From Prorocentrum cordatum (lineage: Eukaryota): 55,980 nucleotides of DNA. The stretch is taken from contig CAUYUJ010000119.1 of assembly GCA_963575745.1 (NCBI GenBank), forward strand, positions 62,001 to 117,980, in the 5' to 3' direction. Both the position numbers and the translations under genes were made by a program. The notes below the pieces were generated by a model. The model saw only the letters and a list, made by a program, of their open reading frames with translations. It was not told where the DNA came from and did no database searches. Shown piece after piece: positions 10,865 through 29,580 of this stretch (its first letter is position 1; the number at the start of each line of letters is the position of its first letter).

Positions 10865-11399
10865 TACGCGCTGTCCCCGTCGTCGCGGCTGCGCCGAGCT
10901 CGGGCTCCAGAGCTTCGCCTCCAGCGTGGCGCAAGCCCGAGCCCCAGCCCTGTCGCCAATGGCGTCGGGGCGTCTCGGCGGGGGCTCCAGCCGCCCCGCC
11001 TCTGTGGGCTTTTGTCGCCCACAGAGGCGGGGCGGCTGGAGCCCTCCTCCTCCTCCTCCTCCTCCTCCTCCTCCTCCTCCTCCTCCTCCTCCTGCTCCTC
11101 CTCCTCCTCCTCCTCCTCTTCCTCCTCCAGGGCGCCGTCCAGGGACCGAGTTCGCGCGGACCTGCCTGTGCCCCTCGTGACCGGCTCCTCCTCGGGACCC
11201 ACCCAGCGCAGACCCCCGGGGCCACGGCGATCTCGCCAGTGCGCTGCCCCAGAGGTGCAGACCCTCTCCCATTGGTCGGAGGGCACCAACTATACACCAA
11301 CACCGATCCTGGCCCAGGATCACCCTGGGCCCAGGATCGGTGTGTATGCCTTCTTGCGCAAGGCAGGAGGGCGTATACACCGATCCTGGGCCCAGGGTG

Positions 11400-16977: not shown

Positions 16978-17620
16978 GAGCGGTCCCAGCAGCGCTGCAG
17001 AGAGAAGCACGACCTGGAGCAACACGACAGAGAGCAGCAGCCCTTGGACGTTGACATCCGCGAGTGGTCCCAGCAGCTCGGCAGAGAGCAGCACGACCCC
17101 GAGTAGCACGACAGAGAGCAGCAGCCCTTGGACGTCGACATCCGCGAGTGGTCCCAGAACATCGGCAGAGAGCAGCACGACCCCGAGTAGCACGACAGAG
17201 AGCAGCAGCCCTTGGACGTTGACATCCGCGAGGGGTTCCAGCAGCTCGGCAGAGAGCAGCACGACCCCGAGTAGCACGACAGAGAGCAGCAGCCCTTGGA
17301 CGTTGACATCCGCGAGTGGTCCCAGCAGCACGGCAGAGAACAGCAGAGAGCAGCAGCCCGTGGACGTTGACATCCGCGAGGGGTTCCAGCAGCTCGACAG
17401 AGAGCAGCACGACCCCGAGTAGCACGACAGAGAGCAGCAGCCCTTGGACGTTGACATCCGCGAGTGGTCCCAGCAGCTCGGCAGAGAGCAGCACGACCCC
17501 GAGTAGCACGACAGAGCGCAGCAGCCCTTGGACGTCGACATCCGCGAGTGGTCCCAGCAGCACGGCAGAGGGCAGAACGACACGGAGCAGCACGACATAT
17601 AGCAGCAGCAGCCCGTGGAG
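16978..17620 (+). repeat. 84-bp tandem array (8 units, one shortened to 64 bp) directly 5' of the CRE-like ORF
   Basis: Unit starts at 16978, 17062, 17146, 17230, 17314 (short), 17378, 17462 and 17546 (diverged). Confidence 0.95.
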
Positions 17621-20600
17621 GTGGTGCAAGCCGCCCAGGGCGATCTCGCTCGAGGCAGGGCCCCCAGGCACGCGCACAAGCAGTGCGGAGCTATTCTACT
17701 TGCACCACAGGCGGTCCTGCGCCGCGTCTGCGAGTGGGGCCCAATCTCAGGGGGCGAAAAGGCCGTCGCCGCGCCCAGCAGTGGCCCCTCTCCTGATCTC
17801 GTTGGGCCCATGCATGGGTTTTGGTATGGACATCGTTTTCGTCTTCACCAGCCTGCAGTGCAACTTTCTTCTCAGGAGTCTTTTGCTCGTCATCGAGCGG
17901 CCAGGCTCTTGGGCCCCCGCTGTCTTCGCCTGCCTGGCACACCCCCCCTTGGGCGAGCACGGCACCGCGCTGCAGCTCTGCGCCTTGGTCTCGGGCGATG
18001 CCGTGCCGTGGATGGCCGTGCAAGCCGTCCTCCTTGGGAGCTGGCGCGCGCCTGTCGGGATCGTCGCTCTCGCGGCTTACGCGTGTGACGTGCACGTCCA
18101 GCTGCGATGGTGCAGGCTTGCTAGCGCTGGCGTGGCCTTTGCAGGAATCCCCGGTTGGGGCACAGGCGCTGGGACAGCTTGGGCGGCCGCCACGGTAGGG
18201 GCGGCGTGGTGGCGACCAGCCTTTCCAGACGCGGGGCCGCCGCCTCCGGCGCCGCACCCGGAGCCGCGGCCAGCAGCCAGGGAACTCCGGGTCACCAGCT
18301 GGGGCGTCGACGTGCTCGCCAACCGCCGGAGCTGCTACTGCCACCTGGAGTCGTGCAAGGGGCCGATACGGCGGGGAGACCTCCGGGCCTTCAGCACCAC
18401 CCTCGCGCACAAACTGTACTACCACCCTGAGTGCGTGGAGGGTGGCCTAGGGCCCTACGACAACGTCGCGGGCACCGATCAGCTCACAGACGCCCAAAAG
18501 GACACTGTCCGTGACCTTTGCGACAGGCCTGGGAGACCCACCCGCGAGCAGTTCGTCGAAGACGTCCGCAGCGCGAAAAGAGCACGGCAGCAGGGCACGG
18601 ACGGAGGCGGGGCGCCTTTGCAGGGAGCAGACGACGGCGACCCGGGAGAGCTGCCCGAAACACTAGAAGGAGACGCGGGGAACGGGCCCCAGGCAGATTT
18701 GTCTAGTCTGTCCTGGTGGGACTCTGTGTCGTACGACAGCCTCGCCCAGGATGTGCCCACGGTGGCAAAGGTGCCGGACGAGACGGCGCGGGCCTTGGCG
18801 GCGCTGCGCGGCCGAATAGCACAGACACTGCTCAACGCTTACGGCGCCGGCGACGCCACCGCGCAGCACCGCGCCGAGAAGCTCGTCACTTTCTTCGACC
18901 GCCTCATGCTCCACAGGAACCAGAAACAGCGCGGCGGCAAGGCGACGAAAGGGCGGGGTCTCAGCCAGGCGTTGATCAGCAGACTGAGGCTGGCTGAGCG
19001 GGGGGACTGGGCCGCTCTCTGGAGGGCGGCCCACGCCCCGGGCACTCGCCCGCCTGGGCGCAGCGGCCGGCGGCCCACGCCCGAGCGAGCCGCCCAGCAG
19101 GCAGAGACGCTGGTGAAGGAGGGTCTGGTCAGCAAGGCGATGACGGCCGTCGCCCGCCCGACGACGCCAGCCCAGGGGAGCGGCGTCTGCGCCACTCTGG
19201 AGAGCCTTTTCCCGACGGGGGCCCCTGCCACCTGGAACGGTCCAGCGCCGCAGCCACTTGACGAGGACTTGCAGAATGAATTGCTCACCGCGGTCAAAGA
19301 CCACGTCCGCCGCGCTCCCCGCCGGTCTGGTCCTGGACCTAACGGCTCCCGCTTTGAACACTGGCGTACCCTGCTGTGTGACACACCTGCCCTCGAAGCT
19401 TGCGCCAGAGTCGTGGTCCTGTTCCTTCACGGGCAGTTCAGCCCAGGAGCCATGGAAGCGAACCTCGGGGCACGGCTCGTGGCTCTTCGCAAACCGAATG
19501 GAGGCTTCCGCCCAATCGCTTGTGGCGGCGTACTGCGGCGCTTGGCGGGGCGGGCGGCCTGCGCGGTGTTCGGGGACATCATCAAAGCGGGGTGTGGCCG
19601 GTTCCAATATGCTGTTGGCCGGCCAGCAGGCTGTGAATTAATCCACAAGACGATCGCTGCCCTCACGGAGGCAAGCCCGCGAGGAGTGATCCTGGCCTTC
19701 GACGCGAAGAACGCCTTCAACAGTGTGCCCTGGCAGCAAGTTCTGGACAGCGTGGCGGCGAGAGCACCGGACCTCGGCCCGACGGCGGCCGCTTGGTTGG
19801 GCAGGACCACGACGCACCTGTTCTGGAACGACACCGAAGACGCCGCTCGGGTCCGGGCGACGAGCGGAGTCGACCAAGGCTGCCCCTTGTCCCCTGCCTT
19901 GTTCGCCATCGCCATCGCTGGCGCCCTGGGCGAGATCCACGCCGCGCTGCAGACGTTCTCGCCCGCTTGCAAGGTCTTCGGCTACTTGGACGACGTGATG
20001 GTTTTCACTCCCCTAGAGCACGCTGCGGCCGCTGACCAGATCGTCGCGGAGACGCTTCTCCGGCACGGGCTACAGGTTCAACAGGACAAAACGCAAGCTT
20101 GGACAAAGGACGCCAACGCGGCCCTTCCCCCCACGCTCAGCGAGCGCCGGGTGCCGCACCTGAAGTGTCTGGGCAACGCGGCGCCGTGGCTGGACCAGGA
20201 GGAGGAGCGGATCCGAGTCCACGCCGGCACGGACGGCGCCGCCGCAGTGGCGAAAGCGGTCAGGTTCGGCTACCGACTCCGCGAGCTACGTGCAGCGGGC
20301 CTCTCAGCTGGGGCCACCTTCACGCTGCTCCGCGCCTGCGCCCAAGGCGCCGTGACGCACCACCTGCGAGCCAGCCGCGACCTGTCCTGGGTGGACCAGT
20401 TCGATCAAATCATACTCGGCTGTCTGGAAGAACTCATCGGGGCCGCTCTCGACCCGCAGCAGCGCGCGCAGGCCACGATGCGCCTCAAAGACGGCGGTAT
20501 CTCCTTGCCTTCCGCGCGGACCACCTCCCCCGCAGCGTGCGCGGCAAGCTGGGCTCTCACCATGAAGGAAGTGGCCCGCGCCGCCGGTTTCCAGAGCTGG

Positions 20601-21532
20601 GAAGACTTCCGGGCACAATGCCCCCTGACGCACCAAGCGCTCAAAGAAGCCGACGCTGGCCTCCGGGCCCAGGGGGCCGTCAGCGGCGACTTCGATTGGT
20701 TGGGGTGCTTCCAGGAGCCCACGCCCAAGTTGCAAGGCACGTGGGGCAAGGCGCGCTCTGCGGCCACGAGCAAAACTCCTCCGGGAGCTCGGGGGGGGCG
20801 ACCGCCTGGCACTCCGCGGCGCTGGCGGGACAGGAGCCGGCAGTTTCGTCCTGCCCAGCGAGGAACATGCCCGACAGGCACTTCATCACCTCTGTGAAGC
20901 TGCGCCTCCGGTGTGATGTCTGCCCGCAAGGCGCCGTGTGCCAGCTCCGCCGCCAGGGCGGCACAATCTGCGGCGCCCCACTGGACCGGCGAGGGTGGCA
21001 CGCGAGATGCTGTGGAGTCGGTCAGTCCCGCACCGCCCGCCACGACCGCATGCGGGACTGGCATGCCAAGCTGCACACCAGCCTCACAGGCTTCGCCGCG
21101 ACCACAGAGCAGCTTGTCCCTGCATGGGACCGCGTCAACCGGCGCACAGGCCTGCTGGAAGCAGCCAAGTTAGATGTCGCCACGACAGATCCCAGCACGG
21201 GCCGGCCCGTCTTCGTTGATTGGAGCATCACCTGCGAATACTCTGAGTACGCCCCTCGCAGGCAAGCACGCTCCAACAACGATGGCGCCGCCGCAGCGGC
21301 CATGGTGCGGGAAAAGCGGGACAGATACCCCCCGAGTGGGGGAGACCTCGCCCCACTCGTCTTCGAGACATTGGGCCGCCCGTCAGACGAAGCCGCAGAG
21401 TTCCTCCGGGCTTGCGGACAGAACCTCGGCGAGGCAGAGCGGGGCGAGGTGCTCGCCAGAGTGTGGCGGCAGCTGTCCCGCCACCTCCGGCGTGGCAATG
21501 CCGAGATGGTGCTCAGCGCCATCGGCCAGTAA
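17316..21532 (+). mobile_element. CRE/SLACS-type non-LTR retrotransposon ORF: PARP-type zinc finger, RT, CCHC knuckle and restriction-like endonuclease; two frameshifts near 20773 and 20867
   Basis: RT motifs SGPGPNGSRFEHW, LVALRKPNGGFRPIACG, QYAVG, FDAKNAFNSV, GVDQGCPLSP, GYLDD, LKDGGISL. Then LRGAGGTGAGSF in a shifted frame. Then CGAPLDRRGWHARCC, RHD, KLDV, VFVDWSI, REKRDRYP, PLVFETLGR. Stop at 21530-21532. True start codon uncertain. Confidence 0.9.
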
Positions 21533-23258: not shown

Positions 23259-24019
23259 TGAAGTCGGGCCTGTCCCTCTACAGGAGGGATATTCGGAAAT
23301 AGTCCAAAAATAGTCTGGGAACTATTTCTTTGAGTACTTCCCTACCTAGGCTCTGCCTAGAAGGGTTCTTACTCTCTTAGCTTAAAGGGGCCGGGCAGTG
23401 GAAAGCGCCCCGGGCGGTTCCCCAGTCCCCTGGGAGCGGTTCCCCCCAGTCCCCTGGGAGCTTTAGCTTTAGCTTTAGCTTTAGCTTTAGCTTTAGCTTA
23501 GCTTTAGCTGAGCTTTAGCTTAGCTGCAGCTTAGCTTTAACTTAGCTTTTCGCTTAGCTTTTCGCTTAGCGTTTAGCTTAGCTTTAGCTTAGCTTTAGCT
23601 TAGCTTTAGCTTAGCTTGAGCTTAGCTGTAGCTTAACTTTAGCTTAGCTTTAGCTTAGCTTTAGCTTAGCTGTAGCTTAGCTTTAGCTTAGCTGTTGCTC
23701 AGCTTTAGCTTAGCTTTAGCTTAGCTTTAGCTTAGCTTTAGCTTAGCTTTGTCTTAGCTTCAGCTTAGCTTTAGCTTAACATTAGCTTAGCTGTGGCTTA
23801 GCTTTAGCTTAGCTTTAGCTTAGCTTTAGCTTAGCTTTAGCTTAGCTTTAGCTTAGCTTTAGCTTAGCGTTACTGTTACTACTAATGCTGCTTTCCTAGG
23901 GGTTCCAACTCCTAGGTAGGGTTGCACTGGGATAATTTTGATAATTTTTGGGGTATTTGTTTTGGGTATTTTTGATTTTTCGCCCCAAATCCCCCTGTAG
24001 GGGGACACGCCCGACTTAA
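23259..24019. mobile_element. Non-autonomous TIR element carrying a (TTAGC)/(TTTAGC) satellite, 8-bp TSD, copy 1
   Basis: TIRs TGAAGTCGGGCCTGTCCCTCTACAGG / CCTGTAGGGGGACACGCCCGACTTAA. CGCTACAT at 23251-23258 and 24020-24027. Splits the LINE RT. Confidence 0.85.
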
Positions 24020-24964
24020 CGCTACATATTAAGTGGGGTCATTTCGTCAGCCCCGCGTCCTGTTTTAGGCCTCGTCGAATGCAGAGCGTATTGTACGCGT
24101 TCGGGTCGCAAAGGTTCCAGCTGCTCCACAGCGGCCGCGTACCCGATCTCCCTGAAGATGCAGTTGACCTCGTCGAGGTCCGGTGGCTGGGGGCTCCATA
24201 GGGCATGCCATTTTAGGGCCTTCCTATCCACGATGTCGATCGGATGGGAAATAATCTTGCCATACACCCGACGTTCATCAGGCACAGTGGGGATCTTCTT
24301 CAGGGCTCCGTGGAGAATTCCCGAGGCCCCAGGCGAAGCAACCCAATCTCTGAACTGCTTGAGAGCCCCTGGCAGCCCGACGACGTGCACGGGCAGCTGC
24401 ACGTTCGGTCGCAAAGGTCATTTTGTGAACCAGTGCGTCAGAGAGCGAGGAGACGCGCAGAAGCTTAGCCTGCCAGTCGCTCGAGGCGGGGGCGTTCGCG
24501 CCGTCGTCGCCGTGGGCAGCGCGCGAGTCATCAGAAGCATAATCAGCCAATGGAACGGTCGCGCCAGGGGGTTAGTCGCTGGCCAAGGCCCGCAACGCTT
24601 CAGAAAGCTGAGCTTGCTGCACAACACCATTGCCTCGACTGCGGTGCTTGCTGAGCCCAGACAAGACCGTGGAGAGTCGGCCCCGCCAGGAAGCCACAGT
24701 ATCATGGAACGGCTGGTCACGATCATTAAGTATCCACCGCCTGGACCTCGACGACCTGAGAGAAAGGCCCCTGGGCCCCAGAAGTCTCACCTCCAAAACC
24801 GCACTCATGATACTCAAGAATCGCAAGCTCCACGGTGGACGCCAAAGCACCATGCAGAGCTCCCAGGCGCAGTATGTGTTGGCCACCAACCGCGGAAGCA
24901 GCATATTCCCTGGCAGCGCCCCAAACGTTGCTGACATCGCGCCTGTTGAGGTATCCGACCTTCG

Positions 24965-25180
24965 AGGAGGAGGAGGAGGAGGAGGAGGAGGAGGAGGAGG
25001 AGGAGGAGGAGGGGAGGAGGAGGGGGAGGAGGCTGGGGGAAAGGGGGAATAAGTGGGGGGGGGCCTCCAACGGCCGAGGGCGGACTCGGGGTAAAGAGGT
25101 GGCCCCTGCAAGCGAAAGAGTCTTGTCTTCCGCAGCGCGCTCCTCCTCCTCCTCCTCCTCCTCCTCCTCCTCCTCCTCCT
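24965..25180. mobile_element. 216-bp insertion bounded by inverted (AGG)n...(CCT)n tracts with a 5-bp TSD
   Basis: CTTCG at 24960-24964 and 25181-25185. Excision joins the LINE frames ...LRPGPK|VGYLNRRDVSNVW... Confidence 0.65.
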
Positions 25181-27489
25181 CTTCGGGCCTGGTCTGAGAG
25201 GGGGCGGGGGCGGCGTCGGCCGTCTCGTCAAACAAGGAACGCGCGACATCGGGCTCGACGTCAGGCCCGCAGTCTGCGGCGACTTCCCCAAAAAGGTGGC
25301 AGGGGCCCTCTCGGGGTCTTCCAAGTCACCGAGCATGGCATTAGCTGCCTCTGAGAAACGCTCTCTCGACCACTGCTGCTGAATCCTACGTTGCTGCTTG
25401 GCAATAGACTTCGACCCCTGGGTGGGGGCGACGCGTGGGCGAGGCGTCTGGGGAAGGCGAACTGGCAAGACCAGCTCGCGACAGAGCAGCTGGCTACCCG
25501 AACCCCGAAGACGGATCTCTGTGGTCGCCATGGAACTGCAAACATCGCCGAGACGCCTGCAATGCGCGCCGCACAACAGTGATTGGCCACAACGTAATCT
25601 GAACGAGCTCCTCTTCCTGATTCACAAGGGGTAGGTGTGCCTGGTGTGAAAATGATTTCTCCAACTTTTTCGACGAAACCTGTAGCTGTCAAAACTTCGG
25701 GAGACAAGCTGGAGTCTCTGGCGATAAACCTAGGGGGTCGAAGCTGAGAGACACATGCACCGAGACGCGCATACCTTTGCAAATTTCTACCACCGAAGCC
25801 GTCGGAGCAAACGCAGTAGAAAGTGATCGCCACGACTGAGTACCCATGCTGATGAAGGATGGTGGCCGCGAAGCCGTCGACCGCTGAGGTGCCCTCGGAA
25901 ATGAGATTGCGGCAAATGCATCGTCTGCTCCGGTATGCTGGACCTGAAGTTGCCTGGTGCTTAGACAGCTCTCGCCGCCCTCGTTGGCCCTGTCACGCTG
26001 TCCCCCCGCGTCCTGTGGATCGGGCAGGATTGGTCATGATCTTGAATTGGCCTCGTGGCGTCAGTGCTGGATGTCCTTGCTGGTGGCCACGTGCGTCTCG
26101 ACAACGCCGAAGTGGTGATAGGGCAAGTAGCTATCACTTATGAAAAAGTTTCAAGCTTTCTTGCCCGATGCCGTGATGGTGGCCACCATGATGAGCGCGT
26201 CGGCCCCACTTTTGGAGAGTGAGGGCCTCTCCCCAGCATCTTGAGCTGGCGACTGTGCACACCTATCAGCAGATGCTGAACCCCCCGTGCTGGTGGAGGC
26301 GTTCCTGGCCGTGGCTGCACGCGCCGCGCCAGCGCCTCGCCGCGATCATGATGCTGGAATTGTTGGCCGCGCCCTATGCCATCTTGGCCGCTCGCGCCGC
26401 CTCTCCCTTGGCTGCGGTGAGCTTGGCCGCCGCCTCCCTGCGGCGAGCCTCCTTCGCGGCCGCCTCCTCCGCGGGCGCCGCCGCTGCGGCGGCTGCGGCT
26501 GTCGCGGCTGGCGCGCTTAGTTGTGCACCTGCATCGCCGCCGCCATTGGCCTCGTCCTCGCACCTGCGCTTCTTGGCCAGACATGTCTGGGTCTGCTGCC
26601 GCAGCCCCTTCCCTCTCGCCAGCCGCGCCTGGACCTCTGAGTTCTTCGACGTGAGTTGCTGCTTGGCCTTCTTGAGGTCTGCCCCTAAGTGACGAAGTGC
26701 CTCGATCTCCGACTGCTCTGCCTCGAGCTGGTCGAGCTTGTCAAAGACTCGTATCGCTGAATGCCGAACAGCACCTGGTCGCTCTTCTTGTCGCCGTTGG
26801 GCAAGACCCCGCACTTGGGGGCGAGCGCCTGGGCGCCATCCTCTTAGCCTCCAAGGCCGCCGCGAGTGCCATGGACGTCTCCGCCTCGCGCCCCTTCGCA
26901 CTGCCGAGGTTGGCCTGGCACCGCTGGAGCTCCGCGACGGCTTGCTCACGCTTGAGCTCGGCGTCCTTGACCGCGCCCACGCCACGGCCCTGCGGAGCGC
27001 CTCTCCGCTGGGGTGGTGGCCGCGCCTTGGCGCCCGCGGCCTCGACGCTGGCAGTCTTGGCTTGGGGCGCCTTCTGGAGAGCCCCGTCGCCCCCTGCCGC
27101 CGCCGGCGCTCCCTCCAGAACCGCCAGGGGCGACGGTGCGGGAGGGGCTGGGGGCAAGGGAGAGGCGGTTGGAGGCCTTGCCATTGCCGACGTCGTCGCT
27201 GGCCTGCTGGCTGCCAACCTTCTTGCTACGATAAAGCTTGACAAGACGACCATCACCAGAACATTTGCGATCTGCCTTGGGCAGGGTCGAATTCCAGTCG
27301 TGGCGTCCACGACGTTTGAACGTGCTTCATGACCCTGCGGGAGACGACATGCTGTGATTCGCCCTCTTCGCCACCGAGGATGGCGTCCCTCGTGTGGAGA
27401 TGCTGTCTCGGTGCCCCCCAAGCGCCTCGATGCGGCGAGGGCTCGACTGGAGAGTGGCCAAAATGGAAACTCTCGAGCCACATTGCTTC

Positions 27490-27844
27490 AGAGGAGGAGG
27501 AGGAGGAGGAGGAGGAGGAGGAGGAGGAGGAGGAGACGAGGAGGAGGACGAGAGGAGGAGGAGGAAGGAGGAGGAGGGGAGGAGGAAGGAAGGAGGAGGG
27601 GAGAAGAGGAGGAGAGGAGGAGGAGAAGAAGGAGGAGGAGGAGGACGATAAGGAGGAGGAGGATGAGGAGGAGGAGGAGGAGGGGGAGGAGGACGCGAGG
27701 AGGAGGGGAGTGGGTGTGGTGGAGGAGGAGGACTGAGGAGGAGGAGGAGAGGAGGAGGAGGAGGAGGAGGGGAGGAGGAGGAGGAGGAGGGGGAGGAGGG
27801 AGGAGGCGGATGATGATGATGATGGATGATGATGATGATGATGA

Positions 27845-27881
<37 letters not shown>

Positions 27882-28628
27882 GGATGGAGGAGGAGGAGGA
27901 GGAGGAGGAGGAGGAGGAGGAGGAGGAGGAGGAGGAGGAGGAGGAGGAGGAGGATAAGGCGTAGGCGGAGAAACAGGGCACACCCGCCGCTGCTCGGTAG
28001 GGGGGGTTACAAAGAGAGCCGGGAGTAGGAGGAGAATGCGAAGGATGAAGAGGAAGAGGAGGAGCAGGTGGAGGTGGAGGAGGACAAAGAGGAGGAGGAC
28101 CAGGATGATGAGGATGAATAGGGAGAGGAGCAGGAGCAGGATGATAACGAGGAGGTGGAGGAGGACAAGCAGGAGGGGGATGATGATGAGCATGGTGCTG
28201 CTGAGTATTCTTCTTCTTCTGATGATGATGATGATGATGATGATGAAGATGATGATTATGGTGATGCTGCTGATTATGAGGATGATGCTGATGAGGCTGC
28301 TGCTGCTGCTGACGACGCCGATGATGATGATGCTGATGATGATAATGATGATGACGATACTGGTGTTGACGATGTTGATGCTGATGATGCTGATGATGCT
28401 GATGATGCTGATGATGCTGATGCTGATGATGCTCATGCTGATGAGGATGATGATGATGATGATGATGTTGATGTTGTTGACGCTGATGATGATGGTGACG
28501 ATGCTGCTGATGACGATCATGATTAATGGTGTTGATAATGTTGATGATGATGCTGATGATGATGATGATGACGATGATGATGATGATGACGGTGATGATG
28601 ATGGCGATGATGATGATGCTGATGATGC

Positions 28629-28694
<66 letters not shown>

Positions 28695-28949
28695 CTGTGA
28701 TGATGCTGCTGATGATGCCGATGTGGACAATGATGACGGTACTGCTGATGCTTTTGATGATGCTCATGGTGTTTTTGATGATTATGAGGAGGATATCGAT
28801 GATACGGATCCTGATGATGTCGATGATGGTGATGATGCTGATGTTGATGCTGATGCTGTTGCTGTGGATGCTGCTAATGCTGATGGTGCTCATGCTGCTG
28901 ATGCTGATGATGCTGCTGATGATGCTGCTGATGATGATGTTGATGATGC

Positions 28950-29003
<54 letters not shown>

Positions 29004-29580
29004 CGGTGATGATGATGGCGATGATGATGATGCTGATGATGCTGATGATGTTGATGATGATGCTGCTGCTGATGATGATGATGATGATGATGATGATGAC
29101 TGTGATGATGATGCTGATGATGTCGACGTGGACAATGATGACGGTACTGCTGATGCTTTTGATGATGCTCATGGTGCTTTTGATGATTATGAGGAGGATA
29201 TCGATGATACGGATCCTGATGATGTCGATGATGGTGATGATGCTGATGCTGATGCTGATGCTGTTGCTGTTGCTGTTGCTAATGCTGATGGTGCTGATGC
29301 TGCTGATACTGATGATGCTGCTGATGATGCTGCTGCTGATGATGATGCTGATGATGCTGATGATGATGTTGATCCTGCTGCTGCTGATTGATGACGGGTA
29401 ATGTATCATGTTGATGGTGATGGTGATGAGGAGGTTGCAGAGGAGGCGGAGGAGGAGGGGGAGGAGGAGGAGGAGGAGGAGGAGGAGGAGGAGGAGGAGG
29501 AGGAGGAGGAGGAGGGGGAGGGGGAGCATGAGCAGGAGGAGGGGAATGAGGAAGAGTCGGAGCAGGAGGAGCAGCTGGAG
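27490..29580. repeat. Composite (AGG)n/(GAT)n block with an internal ~405-bp tandem duplication
   Basis: GTGGACAATGATGACGGTACTGCTGATGCTTTTG at 28723 and 29128. Confidence 0.95.

What the first reader, a model, noticed from the sequence alone, without database searches (positions are those of the whole stretch)
24960..25185. Insertion whose terminal inverted repeats are microsatellites: (AGG)n...(CCT)n with a 5-bp TSD
Seen: CTTCG | AGGAGG...~110-bp unique core...CCTCCT | CTTCG inside a LINE. Removing 216 bp plus one CTTCG fuses two separate minus-strand frames into ...PPLRPGPKVGYLNRRDVSNVWGAAREYAAS..., so it behaves as a discrete insertion. Inference: either a MITE-like element using simple-repeat TIRs, or break repair in which both ends were extended with the same repeat (telomerase-like) before a filler was captured. 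Either could help explain the density of AGG/CCT tracts here.
Basis: partly seen in the sequence, partly recalled or inferred. Interest (0 to 1): 0.7.

Follow-up and report, generated by a model that had tools for sequence, protein, structure and literature searches.

The report
Inverted AGG/CCT microsatellites in decayed LINE
Two opposite-facing AGG/CCT simple repeats with a matching 5-base flank sit in the spacer of a decayed jumping-gene copy; they could be an insertion, but more likely grew in place from repetitive coding sequence.

Summary
The sequence is as described: CTTCG (24960-24964), (AGG)n (24965-25032), a 107-bp unique core, (CCT)14 (25140-25180), CTTCG (25181-25185).

The right flank is a decayed LINE-like ORF on the minus strand: an APE-type endonuclease remnant (about 26046-25519) and a linker (25519-25304), with relatives in EukProt Pyramimonas sp.. 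The left flank has no detectable relative and no RT domain.

- **Frame fusion:** literally true, but not diagnostic. All three minus frames are open across the block, and 41 of 41 deletion lengths (200-240 nt) keep an ORF of at least 189 aa.
- **5-bp repeat:** modestly unlikely by chance, 11 of 689 (1.6%) control boundary pairs. It is the only positive evidence for an insertion.
- **Against an insertion:** next to the junction, the family-like frame is the one that reads (CCT)14 as poly-Glu, where relatives carry an acidic motif.
- **Not obtainable:** no sister copy, empty site or second copy of the core; no genome is held.

Weights: in-situ microsatellites with a chance repeat about 0.5, a true insertion about 0.35. 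Interest is low to moderate.

The parts
24960..24964 (.). Left copy of the 5-bp direct repeat CTTCG
   Evidence: Read directly; identity of the two 5-mers checked.
24965..25032 (+). (AGG)n arm: 16 perfect units (24965-25012), then imperfect G-rich units towards the core. On the minus strand it reads poly-Ser in frame b and poly-Pro in frame a.
   Evidence: (TRF 24964-25032, 23.3 copies, 94% matches).
25033..25139 (.). 107-bp core. The left third is G-rich; the rest is unique sequence.
   Evidence: Unique in the window by blastn. Longest exact match elsewhere is 11 nt, no more than shuffles give. No tRNA. No Rfam family reaches its gathering score. Its translations show no similarity to 14 family tails.
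25140..25180 (+). (CCT)14 arm, perfect. On the minus strand it is (GAG)n, read as poly-Glu in frame b.
   Evidence: (TRF 25140-25181, 14.0 copies, 100%).
25181..25185 (.). Right copy of CTTCG. On the minus strand it lies within the codons CCC GAA GAG (Pro-Glu-Glu) of frame b.
25188..25292 (-). Right flank next to the junction, frame b ('LFGEVAADCGPD...RP'). It is the candidate continuation of the LINE-like linker after an a-to-b frameshift.
   Evidence: tblastn HSP with P0006 residues 155-187. Sum of the five best pairwise scores is 168 against 137 +- 11.5 for shuffles; 5 of 500 shuffles reach it.
25304..25519 (-). Linker of the LINE-like ORF, frame a (motif LRxSGxQLLxRxLxLPxRLPQxPRP...GSKS...LGD)
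   Evidence: 16 relatives among 1.84 billion representatives, best E 7.8e-10. In-window HMM E 5e-23. tblastn.
25519..26046 (-). Remnant of an APE-type (Exo_endo_phos) endonuclease domain in a third frame; the frameshift lies near 25519.
   Evidence: P0018 (precomputed PF03372) residues 42-222 align at 28% identity, set E 6e-26. HMM E 2e-12. A direct Pfam scan of this window ORF found nothing at E<=1.
24726..24959 (-). Its origin is unassigned.
   Evidence: No Pfam family, no homologue, and no similarity to the tails of P0013 or P0018 in any of six frames. Public contigs hold diverged pieces at 24598-24655.

Best explanation
The block is most likely not a discrete insertion. It lies in the poorly conserved, low-complexity spacer that follows the endonuclease domain of an old, frameshifted LINE-like retroelement copy on the minus strand.

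In relatives this spacer has an acidic motif (WPEExEDPWAxELNF), and in the single longest relative (P0018) a Ser/Pro-rich stretch follows it. I infer that GAG/GAA (Glu) codons of the acidic part expanded by replication slippage into (GAG)n, which is (CCT)14 on the + strand. I infer that TCC/CCT (Ser/Pro) codons further on expanded into (CCT)n, which is (AGG)n on the + strand. GAG and CTC are reverse complements, so a poly-Glu run and a poly-Ser/Pro run in one ORF automatically look like inverted repeats. On this reading the 5-bp CTTCG repeat is a coincidence.

Shown: the LINE-like context on the right, the family's motif order, and the weak but collinear match of frame b. Inferred: the slippage origin of both arms, and that the core is native sequence.
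For: 1. The right flank is a LINE-like endonuclease plus linker. The copy is decayed, with a frameshift near 25519 and stops between the left-flank ORFs.
2. Six of the 14 aligned relatives reach a conserved acidic motif, 'P[DE]E..DPWA.E.NF', about 13-42 residues (my reading of the alignment) after the FGD motif. P0018 continues with a Ser/Pro-rich stretch.
3. In frame b the window reads 'LFGE', then 33 residues, then 'RP' followed by 15 Glu. That puts the Glu run at the expected place.
4. Frame b next to the junction is family-like: 5 of 500 shuffles reach its score, against 98 of 500 for frame a. BLAST links a frame-b HSP at 25292-25188 with the upstream HSPs.
5. ORF b (24729-25325, running through the block) scores 6.6 bits against the family HMM. 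That is third of 892 six-frame pieces, behind the two true hits. It is reached by 2 of 400 shuffles. It ranks first of the 32 pieces holding a run of 8 or more Glu, the next scoring 2.6 bits.
6. AGG/CCT tracts make up 5% of this window, 53 tracts in all. In-situ microsatellites are therefore the local norm.
7. The block is 216 bp, exactly 72 codons, and is open in all three minus frames.
Against: - A flanking direct repeat of 5 bp or more occurs in only 11 of 689 (1.6%) control boundary pairs. No other tract cluster shows a unique-sequence repeat.
- This is the only tight AGG-then-CCT pair in the window. The right arm is the only CCT-oriented tract between 22 and 29.5 kb.
- Translations of the core show no similarity to 14 family tails: 231, 134 and 118 of 500 shuffles score as well.
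- The frame-b HMM score is small (E 0.32 against 892 pieces) and partly rests on acidic low complexity.
- Frame a also offers a motif-like 'LEDPERAPATFL', and it needs no frameshift.
- I ran several alternative tests, so the nominal p-values are optimistic.
- The left flank could not be tied to the LINE at all.
Confidence: 0.5

Rival explanations
1. A discrete insertion of a small non-autonomous DNA element (MITE-like or foldback-like), or of a captured DNA fragment, into the LINE-like copy. A staggered cut made the 5-bp target-site duplication. The ends were short AGGAGG / CCTCCT inverted termini that later expanded by slippage, or the fragment already ended in such tracts.
For: - An exact CTTCG on both sides, seen in 1.6% of control pairs.
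- Arms 42 nt long and 100% complementary.
- Both arms are perfect at their outer ends, and the right arm has sharp edges on both sides.
- The core is unrelated to anything else in the window and to the family tails.
- Removing the block plus one CTTCG leaves an open 224-aa frame.
Against: - No second copy of the core and no empty site could be found. The searches possible here were narrow.
- The frame argument is empty: 41 of 41 deletion lengths stay open.
- Frame b, not frame a, looks family-like at the right junction.
- The right arm falls where relatives have an acidic motif.
- The arms are pure microsatellite to their very ends, with no specific terminal sequence for a transposase to recognise.
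Confidence: 0.23
2. Dual-end templated repeat addition. A staggered break or endonuclease cut left two 3' ends. Both were extended with (AGG)n by a reverse transcriptase copying a (CCU)n-containing RNA, in a twin-priming-like or telomerase-like way. The gap was then closed with about 107 bp of filler.
For: - Both junctions read ...G|AGGAGG on the strand that would have been extended, which allows 1 nt of microhomology.
- The 5-bp repeat fits a staggered cut.
- An RT-encoding element lies 4 kb away at 17307-20894.
- Twin priming is described for L1 as two cDNAs of opposite orientation, with 5' inversions detected in 18-22% of L1 insertions (PMC12016303, passages read).
Against: - The sequences just inside the two arms are unrelated to each other, so they are not two copies of one RNA 3' end.
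- Sequences next to the other 36 tract clusters examined share no common end that would mark a repeat-tailed retroelement.
- The core has no template in the window.
- No other tract shows a flanking repeat.
- The evidence that the right arm is native counts against this reading too.
Confidence: 0.12
3. A rearrangement junction. The LINE-like copy ends at or near the block, and the left flank is unrelated DNA. The block then marks a deletion or joining point, not an insertion into continuous LINE sequence.
For: - No RT domain and no family similarity anywhere in 23972-24960 on the minus strand, although the endonuclease part is still recognisable.
- An 11-bp satellite starts at 23463.
Against: - P0018 shows that the family's spacer runs at least 223 residues past the endonuclease without reaching the RT. 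The RT could simply lie beyond the satellite.
- Diverged pieces of both flanks occur in the same public run, X1.
- This reading does not explain the 5-bp repeat.
Confidence: 0.1

Closest known systems
In-situ microsatellite expansion from low-complexity coding sequence (poly-Glu GAG and poly-Ser/Pro TCC/CCT runs) in a decayed APE-type LINE
   Same: The arms lie in the variable spacer after the endonuclease domain. Frame b reads them as Glu and Ser runs, in the same order (acidic, then Ser/Pro-rich) as in relative P0018.
   Different: The exact 5-bp flanking repeat is not expected (1.6% of controls). Homology of the core to relatives could not be shown.
Foldback transposons, e.g. Tetris of Drosophila virilis (PMC4079207, passages read)
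   Same: Non-coding elements whose long terminal inverted repeats contain tandem repeats, separated by a middle domain and flanked by target-site duplications.
   Different: The TIRs of Tetris carry a specific outermost flanking domain, its tandem units are about 220 bp, and its TSDs are 8-10 bp. Here the arms are pure trinucleotide repeats to the very end, the repeat is 5 bp, and only one copy is known.
Microsatellite-targeting DNA transposons, e.g. MuTAnT in Medicago (PMC4486113, abstract read); Micron of rice (recalled, not seen in any call)
   Same: An element bracketed by microsatellite on both sides.
   Different: Those elements insert into a pre-existing TA microsatellite, so the same repeat continues in direct orientation on both sides. 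Here the two tracts are reverse complements of each other and unique sequence lies outside them.
Twin priming in LINE-1 retrotransposition (PMC12016303, passages read; Ostertag & Kazazian 2001 seen only in its reference list)
   Same: Both strands of a staggered cut prime reverse transcription. The result is two oppositely oriented cDNAs between target-site duplications.
   Different: In L1 the inverted cDNA is primed on an internal sequence of the same RNA, and both parts are recognisable L1. Here neither inner part resembles a retroelement or the other part.

Membership tests
APE-type non-LTR retrotransposon (LINE): the host element | Apurinic/apyrimidinic-like endonuclease domain (Pfam PF03372) | tested here: met
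   Met indirectly. P0018 carries precomputed PF03372, and its residues 42-222 align to 26046-25519 (28% identity, set E 6e-26). Family HMM E 2e-12. A direct Pfam scan of the window ORF found nothing at E<=1, so the domain is decayed.
APE-type non-LTR retrotransposon (LINE): the host element | Reverse transcriptase domain downstream on the same strand | tested here: not met
   No RVT_1 or other family at E<=1 in minus-strand ORFs 24022-24417, 24418-24786, 24726-25325 and 24572-25621. The only RVT_1 in the window is on the + strand at 17307-20894 and shows no similarity to this region. ORF 24278-24571 was not scanned.
MITE / TIR DNA transposon: the block | Terminal inverted repeats | tested here: met
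   42 nt, 100% complementary. This is trivially so, because the arms are complementary microsatellites.
MITE / TIR DNA transposon: the block | Target-site duplication of fixed length | tested here: inconclusive
   One 5-bp repeat; 11 of 689 control pairs do as well. A fixed length cannot be judged from one copy.
MITE / TIR DNA transposon: the block | Several copies sharing core and termini, and empty sites | not testable with these tools
   No genome held. The core is single-copy in the 56-kb window. Public runs do not cover the block. Collection scans gave nothing usable.
Foldback transposon | TIRs with a conserved outermost terminal domain outside the tandem subrepeats | tested here: not met
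   The perfect AGG / CCT units abut the CTTCG directly.
Twin-primed LINE insertion | Two oppositely oriented cDNA parts of one retroelement RNA, with its 3' tail at one end | tested here: not met
   The sequences just inside the two arms are unrelated. The core matches no retroelement in the window. No shared tract-adjacent end among the other 36 tract clusters.
Microsatellite-targeting transposon (MuTAnT-like) | The same microsatellite in direct orientation on both sides | tested here: not met
   The tracts are reverse complements, and unique sequence lies outside them.

The most novel reading that the evidence does not exclude
The block records a break at which both 3' ends were extended with the same (AGG)n repeat before about 107 bp of filler closed the gap. 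The extending enzyme would be a reverse transcriptase copying a (CCU)n template, in a twin-primed, telomerase-like reaction. If that reaction recurs, it would be a source of the very dense AGG/CCT tracts of this genome.
Probability: 0.08. Interest if true: 0.7.

Novelty: new member of a known kind. Interest (0 to 1): 0.27.

Why it matters
If the block is a real insertion, it would be a mobile or repair-derived unit whose only terminal signal is a trinucleotide repeat. That would offer a mechanism for seeding microsatellites in a genome where AGG/CCT tracts make up 5% of the sequence.

If the tracts arose in place, as I think more likely, the case is ordinary. It is still a useful caution in two ways. 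In GC-rich DNA, 'excision restores a reading frame' is not evidence, because every frame is open. A poly-Glu run and a poly-Ser/Pro run in one ORF mimic terminal inverted repeats.

The work also identifies a decayed APE-type LINE-like family. Its only named relatives here are predicted proteins of Pyramimonas sp.

Tried and rejected
**Searches for the source genome, sister copies or a second copy of the core**
- Own genome: none held.
- Public runs: only small-share holders, 0.16, 0.12 and 0.05 of the words.
  - No RNA holder is listed.
  - Laid contigs gave 100%-identical pieces of both flanks (24268-24474, 25383-25533, 25580-25730, 25880-26000) and diverged pieces.
  - Nothing lay on 24688-25297, and no joint crossed the block.
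- The search for homologous proteins, left flank, longer proteins: none.
- The search for homologous proteins, profile A1, longer proteins: 1 hit, P0018.
- The search for homologous proteins, profile A1, near lengths: 8 hits, none reaching past the acidic motif.
- Metagenome contig scan: 416 pattern matches and 1 tblastn-confirmed locus. That locus, L001, reads to me as a bacterial NADH-dehydrogenase (nuo-like) operon, judged from its ORF translations and not scanned. I count it as a false positive.
- Viral contig scan: 78 pattern matches, none confirmed.
- Earlier findings of this scan: nothing by place, sequence or words.

**What the block itself might be**
- Rfam on 24900-25250: 36 matches, all below gathering score. 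Most are miRNA-precursor models that simply fit the arm pairing.
- tRNA scan: 0 genes.

**Frames and family comparisons**
- Protein atlas on ORF 24022-24417: recognition value 1938, below the 2300 that the tool says 91 in 100 proteins of known families reach, and no family.
- My eyeballed match of 'VGYLNRRDVSNVWGA' to the P0013 tail: rejected, since 596 of 1000 shuffles score as well.
- GC by codon position: too weak to pick a frame.
- BLASTP of ORF b against P0013, P0010 and P0009: E 0.11, 1.2 and 0.15, not significant on their own.

**In-window controls**
- Local templated filler: rejected within the window. The longest exact match of the core elsewhere is 11 nt; 9 of 200 shuffled cores had a shorter longest match (10 nt) and 191 of 200 reached 11 nt or more.
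- A shared retroelement end next to AGG/CCT tracts: none among the other 36 tract clusters.
- Assembly artefact: unlikely, because the core is unique and is not a palindromic copy.
Full report
**1. Observation**

The region reads ...GGTATCCGAC CTTCG (24960-24964), then (AGG)n, then a core, then (CCT)n, then CTTCG (25181-25185), then GGCCTGG....
- The left arm has 16 perfect AGG units (24965-25012), then imperfect G-rich units to 25032.
- The right arm is 14.0 perfect units; TRF reports 25140-25181 at 100%.
- The core, 25033-25139, is 107 bp.
- The arms pair over 42 nt at 100%. As single-stranded DNA the region folds at -75.4 kcal/mol, against -52.2 +- 3.6 for shuffles.
- The block between the two CTTCG copies is 216 bp.

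**2. Is it more than chance?**

AGG/CCT tracts are very dense here: 53 tracts, 2.8 kb of 55,980 bp. They lie in orientation blocks. This is the only AGG-then-CCT pair closer than 1 kb, and the right arm is the only CCT-oriented tract between 22 and 29.5 kb.

As a control for the 5-bp repeat, I paired every left edge of an AGG tract with every right edge of a CCT tract in the window, 689 pairs in all.
- With no slack, 2 pairs have a direct repeat of 5 bp or more.
- With +-1 nt slack, 11 pairs do.
- With +-2 nt slack, 17 pairs do.

With my regex-defined tract edges the observed pair needs +-1 nt slack, so the fair figure is about 1.6%.

No other tract cluster has a flanking repeat made of anything but the low-complexity sequence around it.

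The frame argument does not survive. ORFs 24572-25621, 24726-25325 and 24814-25227 show that all three minus frames are open across the block. Every one of the 41 deletion lengths from 200 to 240 nt leaves an ORF of at least 189 aa, and 216 nt gives a longer one (277 aa) than 221 nt does (224 aa).

**3. Context: is it inside a LINE?**

Pfam finds nothing on the flanking ORFs. The only RVT_1 domain in the window is a 1196-aa ORF on the + strand at 17307-20894, and it is unrelated to this region.

The right flank in minus frame a (25186-25621) nevertheless has 16 relatives among 1.84 billion representative proteins. The best has E 7.8e-10, identities are 36-63%, and the matches lie within query residues 31-118.
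- A profile search for longer proteins adds P0018, 445 aa, which carries PF03372 (Exo_endo_phos).
- The named relatives are EukProt predictions of Pyramimonas sp..
- A family HMM hits frame a at E 5e-23 and a third frame (25264-25992) at E 2e-12.
- tblastn places P0018 residues 42-222 on 26046-25519 and residues 226-298 on 25519-25304.

The right flank is therefore a decayed LINE-like element on the minus strand: an APE-type endonuclease, a frameshift near 25519, then a linker.

The left flank cannot be assigned. It has no Pfam family and no homologue. None of its six frames resembles the tails of the two relatives that extend furthest. No RT is seen before the 11-bp satellite at 23463-23872.

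**4. What relatives have at the position of the block**

In an alignment of 14 relatives, the linker ends in an FGD motif. Six of the 14 go on to a conserved acidic motif of the form WPEExEDPWAxELNF. P0018 then continues with about 95 Ser/Pro-rich residues.

In the window two readings compete.
- **Frame a.** It gives 'MLGDLEDPERAPATFLG', then a Pro-rich stretch up to the junction.
- **Frame b.** It opens at 25325 and gives 'LFGEVAADCGPDVEPDVARSLFDETADAAPAPSQTRP', followed by 15 Glu (the right arm). No excision is needed.

Tests between the two readings:
- Right flank only, sum of the five best pairwise scores to the family tails. Frame b scores 168 against 137 +- 11.5, reached by 5 of 500 shuffles. 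Frame a scores 166 against 156 +- 11.7, reached by 98 of 500 shuffles.
- BLAST links a frame-b HSP (25292-25188, P0006 residues 155-187) to the upstream HSPs.
- ORF b scores 6.6 bits against the family HMM. That is third of 892 six-frame pieces, behind the two true hits (E 0.32), and is reached by 2 of 400 shuffles.
- ORF b ranks first among the 32 pieces that hold a run of 8 or more Glu; the next scores 2.6 bits.

Results against the frame-b reading:
- The right-flank-only HMM scores hardly differ: b 0.3 bits, a -0.6 bits.
- BLASTP of ORF b against single relatives is not significant.
- Core translations show no similarity to 14 family tails.
- I tried several tests, so the nominal p-values are optimistic.

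**5. Search for sister copies, an empty site or more copies of the core**

- None could be obtained, because no genome is held.
- The flanks and the core are single-copy in the window by blastn and tblastn. The core's longest exact match elsewhere in the window is 11 nt, within what shuffles give.
- Three public runs hold short 100%-identical pieces of both flanks, and some diverged pieces that suggest repeated DNA. Nothing covers 24688-25297.
- The metagenome scan returned one false positive, which from its ORFs I read as a bacterial nuo-like operon. The viral scan returned none.
- The core is not a tRNA. It matches no Rfam family at gathering score; the sub-threshold miRNA-precursor hits only reflect arm pairing.

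**6. Explanation**

I weigh the evidence in three steps.
- The insertion reading rests on one datum, the 5-bp repeat at about 1.6%.
- The in-situ reading rests on a comparable level of surprise in the other direction. The family-like frame at the right junction reads the right arm as poly-Glu exactly where relatives are acidic, and a Ser/Pro-type tract follows as in P0018.
- The in-situ reading also has the much higher prior, because 5% of this window is AGG/CCT microsatellite.

A poly-Glu (GAG) run and a poly-Ser/Pro (TCC/CCT) run in one ORF are reverse complements by construction. That explains the apparent 'TIRs' without any transposition.

My weights:

| Reading | Weight |
|---|---|
| In-situ origin with a chance repeat | about 0.5 |
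| Discrete insertion of an element or captured fragment | about 0.23 |
| Dual-end templated repeat addition (twin-priming or telomerase-like) | about 0.12 |
| Rearrangement junction with an unrelated left flank | about 0.1 |
| Unassigned | remainder |

**7. Comparison with known systems**

- **Foldback transposons.** Tetris has TIRs that contain tandem repeats. It also has a specific outermost domain, roughly 220-bp repeat units and 8-10-bp TSDs (PMC4079207, passages). The terminal-domain criterion is not met here.
- **Microsatellite-targeting transposons.** MuTAnT is flanked by the same TA repeat on both sides (PMC4486113, abstract). Here the tracts are inverted.
- **L1 twin priming.** It yields two oppositely oriented cDNAs between TSDs (PMC12016303, passages). 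Both parts derive from one L1 RNA, whereas the two inner edges here are unrelated.
- **In print?** I found no description of an element with trinucleotide-microsatellite TIRs. This rests on one four-term search that listed 6 papers, none on such an element by title and abstract start, and one foldback search. It is not an exhaustive claim.

**8. Verdict**

The LINE context is supported on one side only. The frame-fusion argument is invalid. The insertion reading is neither confirmed nor excluded, and in-situ origin is somewhat more likely.

Interest is low to moderate. A BLAST of the flanks and the core against the source genome would settle the question at once.

Noticed in passing
window 17307-20894 (+), ORF continuing in another frame to 21529: A 1196-aa open frame with a reverse transcriptase domain (RVT_1, E 5e-20). 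It is a second retroelement, on the other strand, with no similarity to the LINE-like remnant at 25.2-26.0 kb. The following frame contains Cys-rich and acidic motifs; no endonuclease test was run.
   Followed up: partly
window 10982-11009 / 11017-11044: A perfect 28-nt inverted repeat with a 7-nt loop, ending exactly where a (CCT)n tract starts at 11043.
   Followed up: partly
window 23463-23872: An 11-bp satellite (TTAGCTTTAGC), 36.8 copies at 89% matches. It lies where the RT of the LINE-like copy would be expected.
   Followed up: no
window 28220-29429: A 1.2-kb array of TGA-type units (period 6/9/15, about 73% matches), flanked by long GAG tracts at 27491-27954 and 29440-29571.
   Followed up: no
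window 26374-27487 (-): Ala/Glu/Lys/Arg-rich ORFs, coiled-coil-like by eye only, upstream of the endonuclease remnant on the same strand. They might be an ORF1 of the same element, but have no Pfam family at E<=1.
   Followed up: partly
window-wide: AGG/CCT tracts lie in orientation blocks: CCT at 11.0-11.8 kb, AGG at 12.3-16.6 kb, AGG at 22-29.5 kb, CCT at 30.6-41.3 kb and AGG at 41.6-52 kb. This suggests strand-linked (transcription, replication or gene-orientation) control of tract polarity.
   Followed up: no
window 24200-26000: Three coded public runs from three studies hold 151-207-nt contigs 100% identical to parts of both flanks at depth 2-2.7. They also hold 80-90%-alike pieces at higher depth, so the flanks probably belong to repeated DNA in those samples.
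   Followed up: partly
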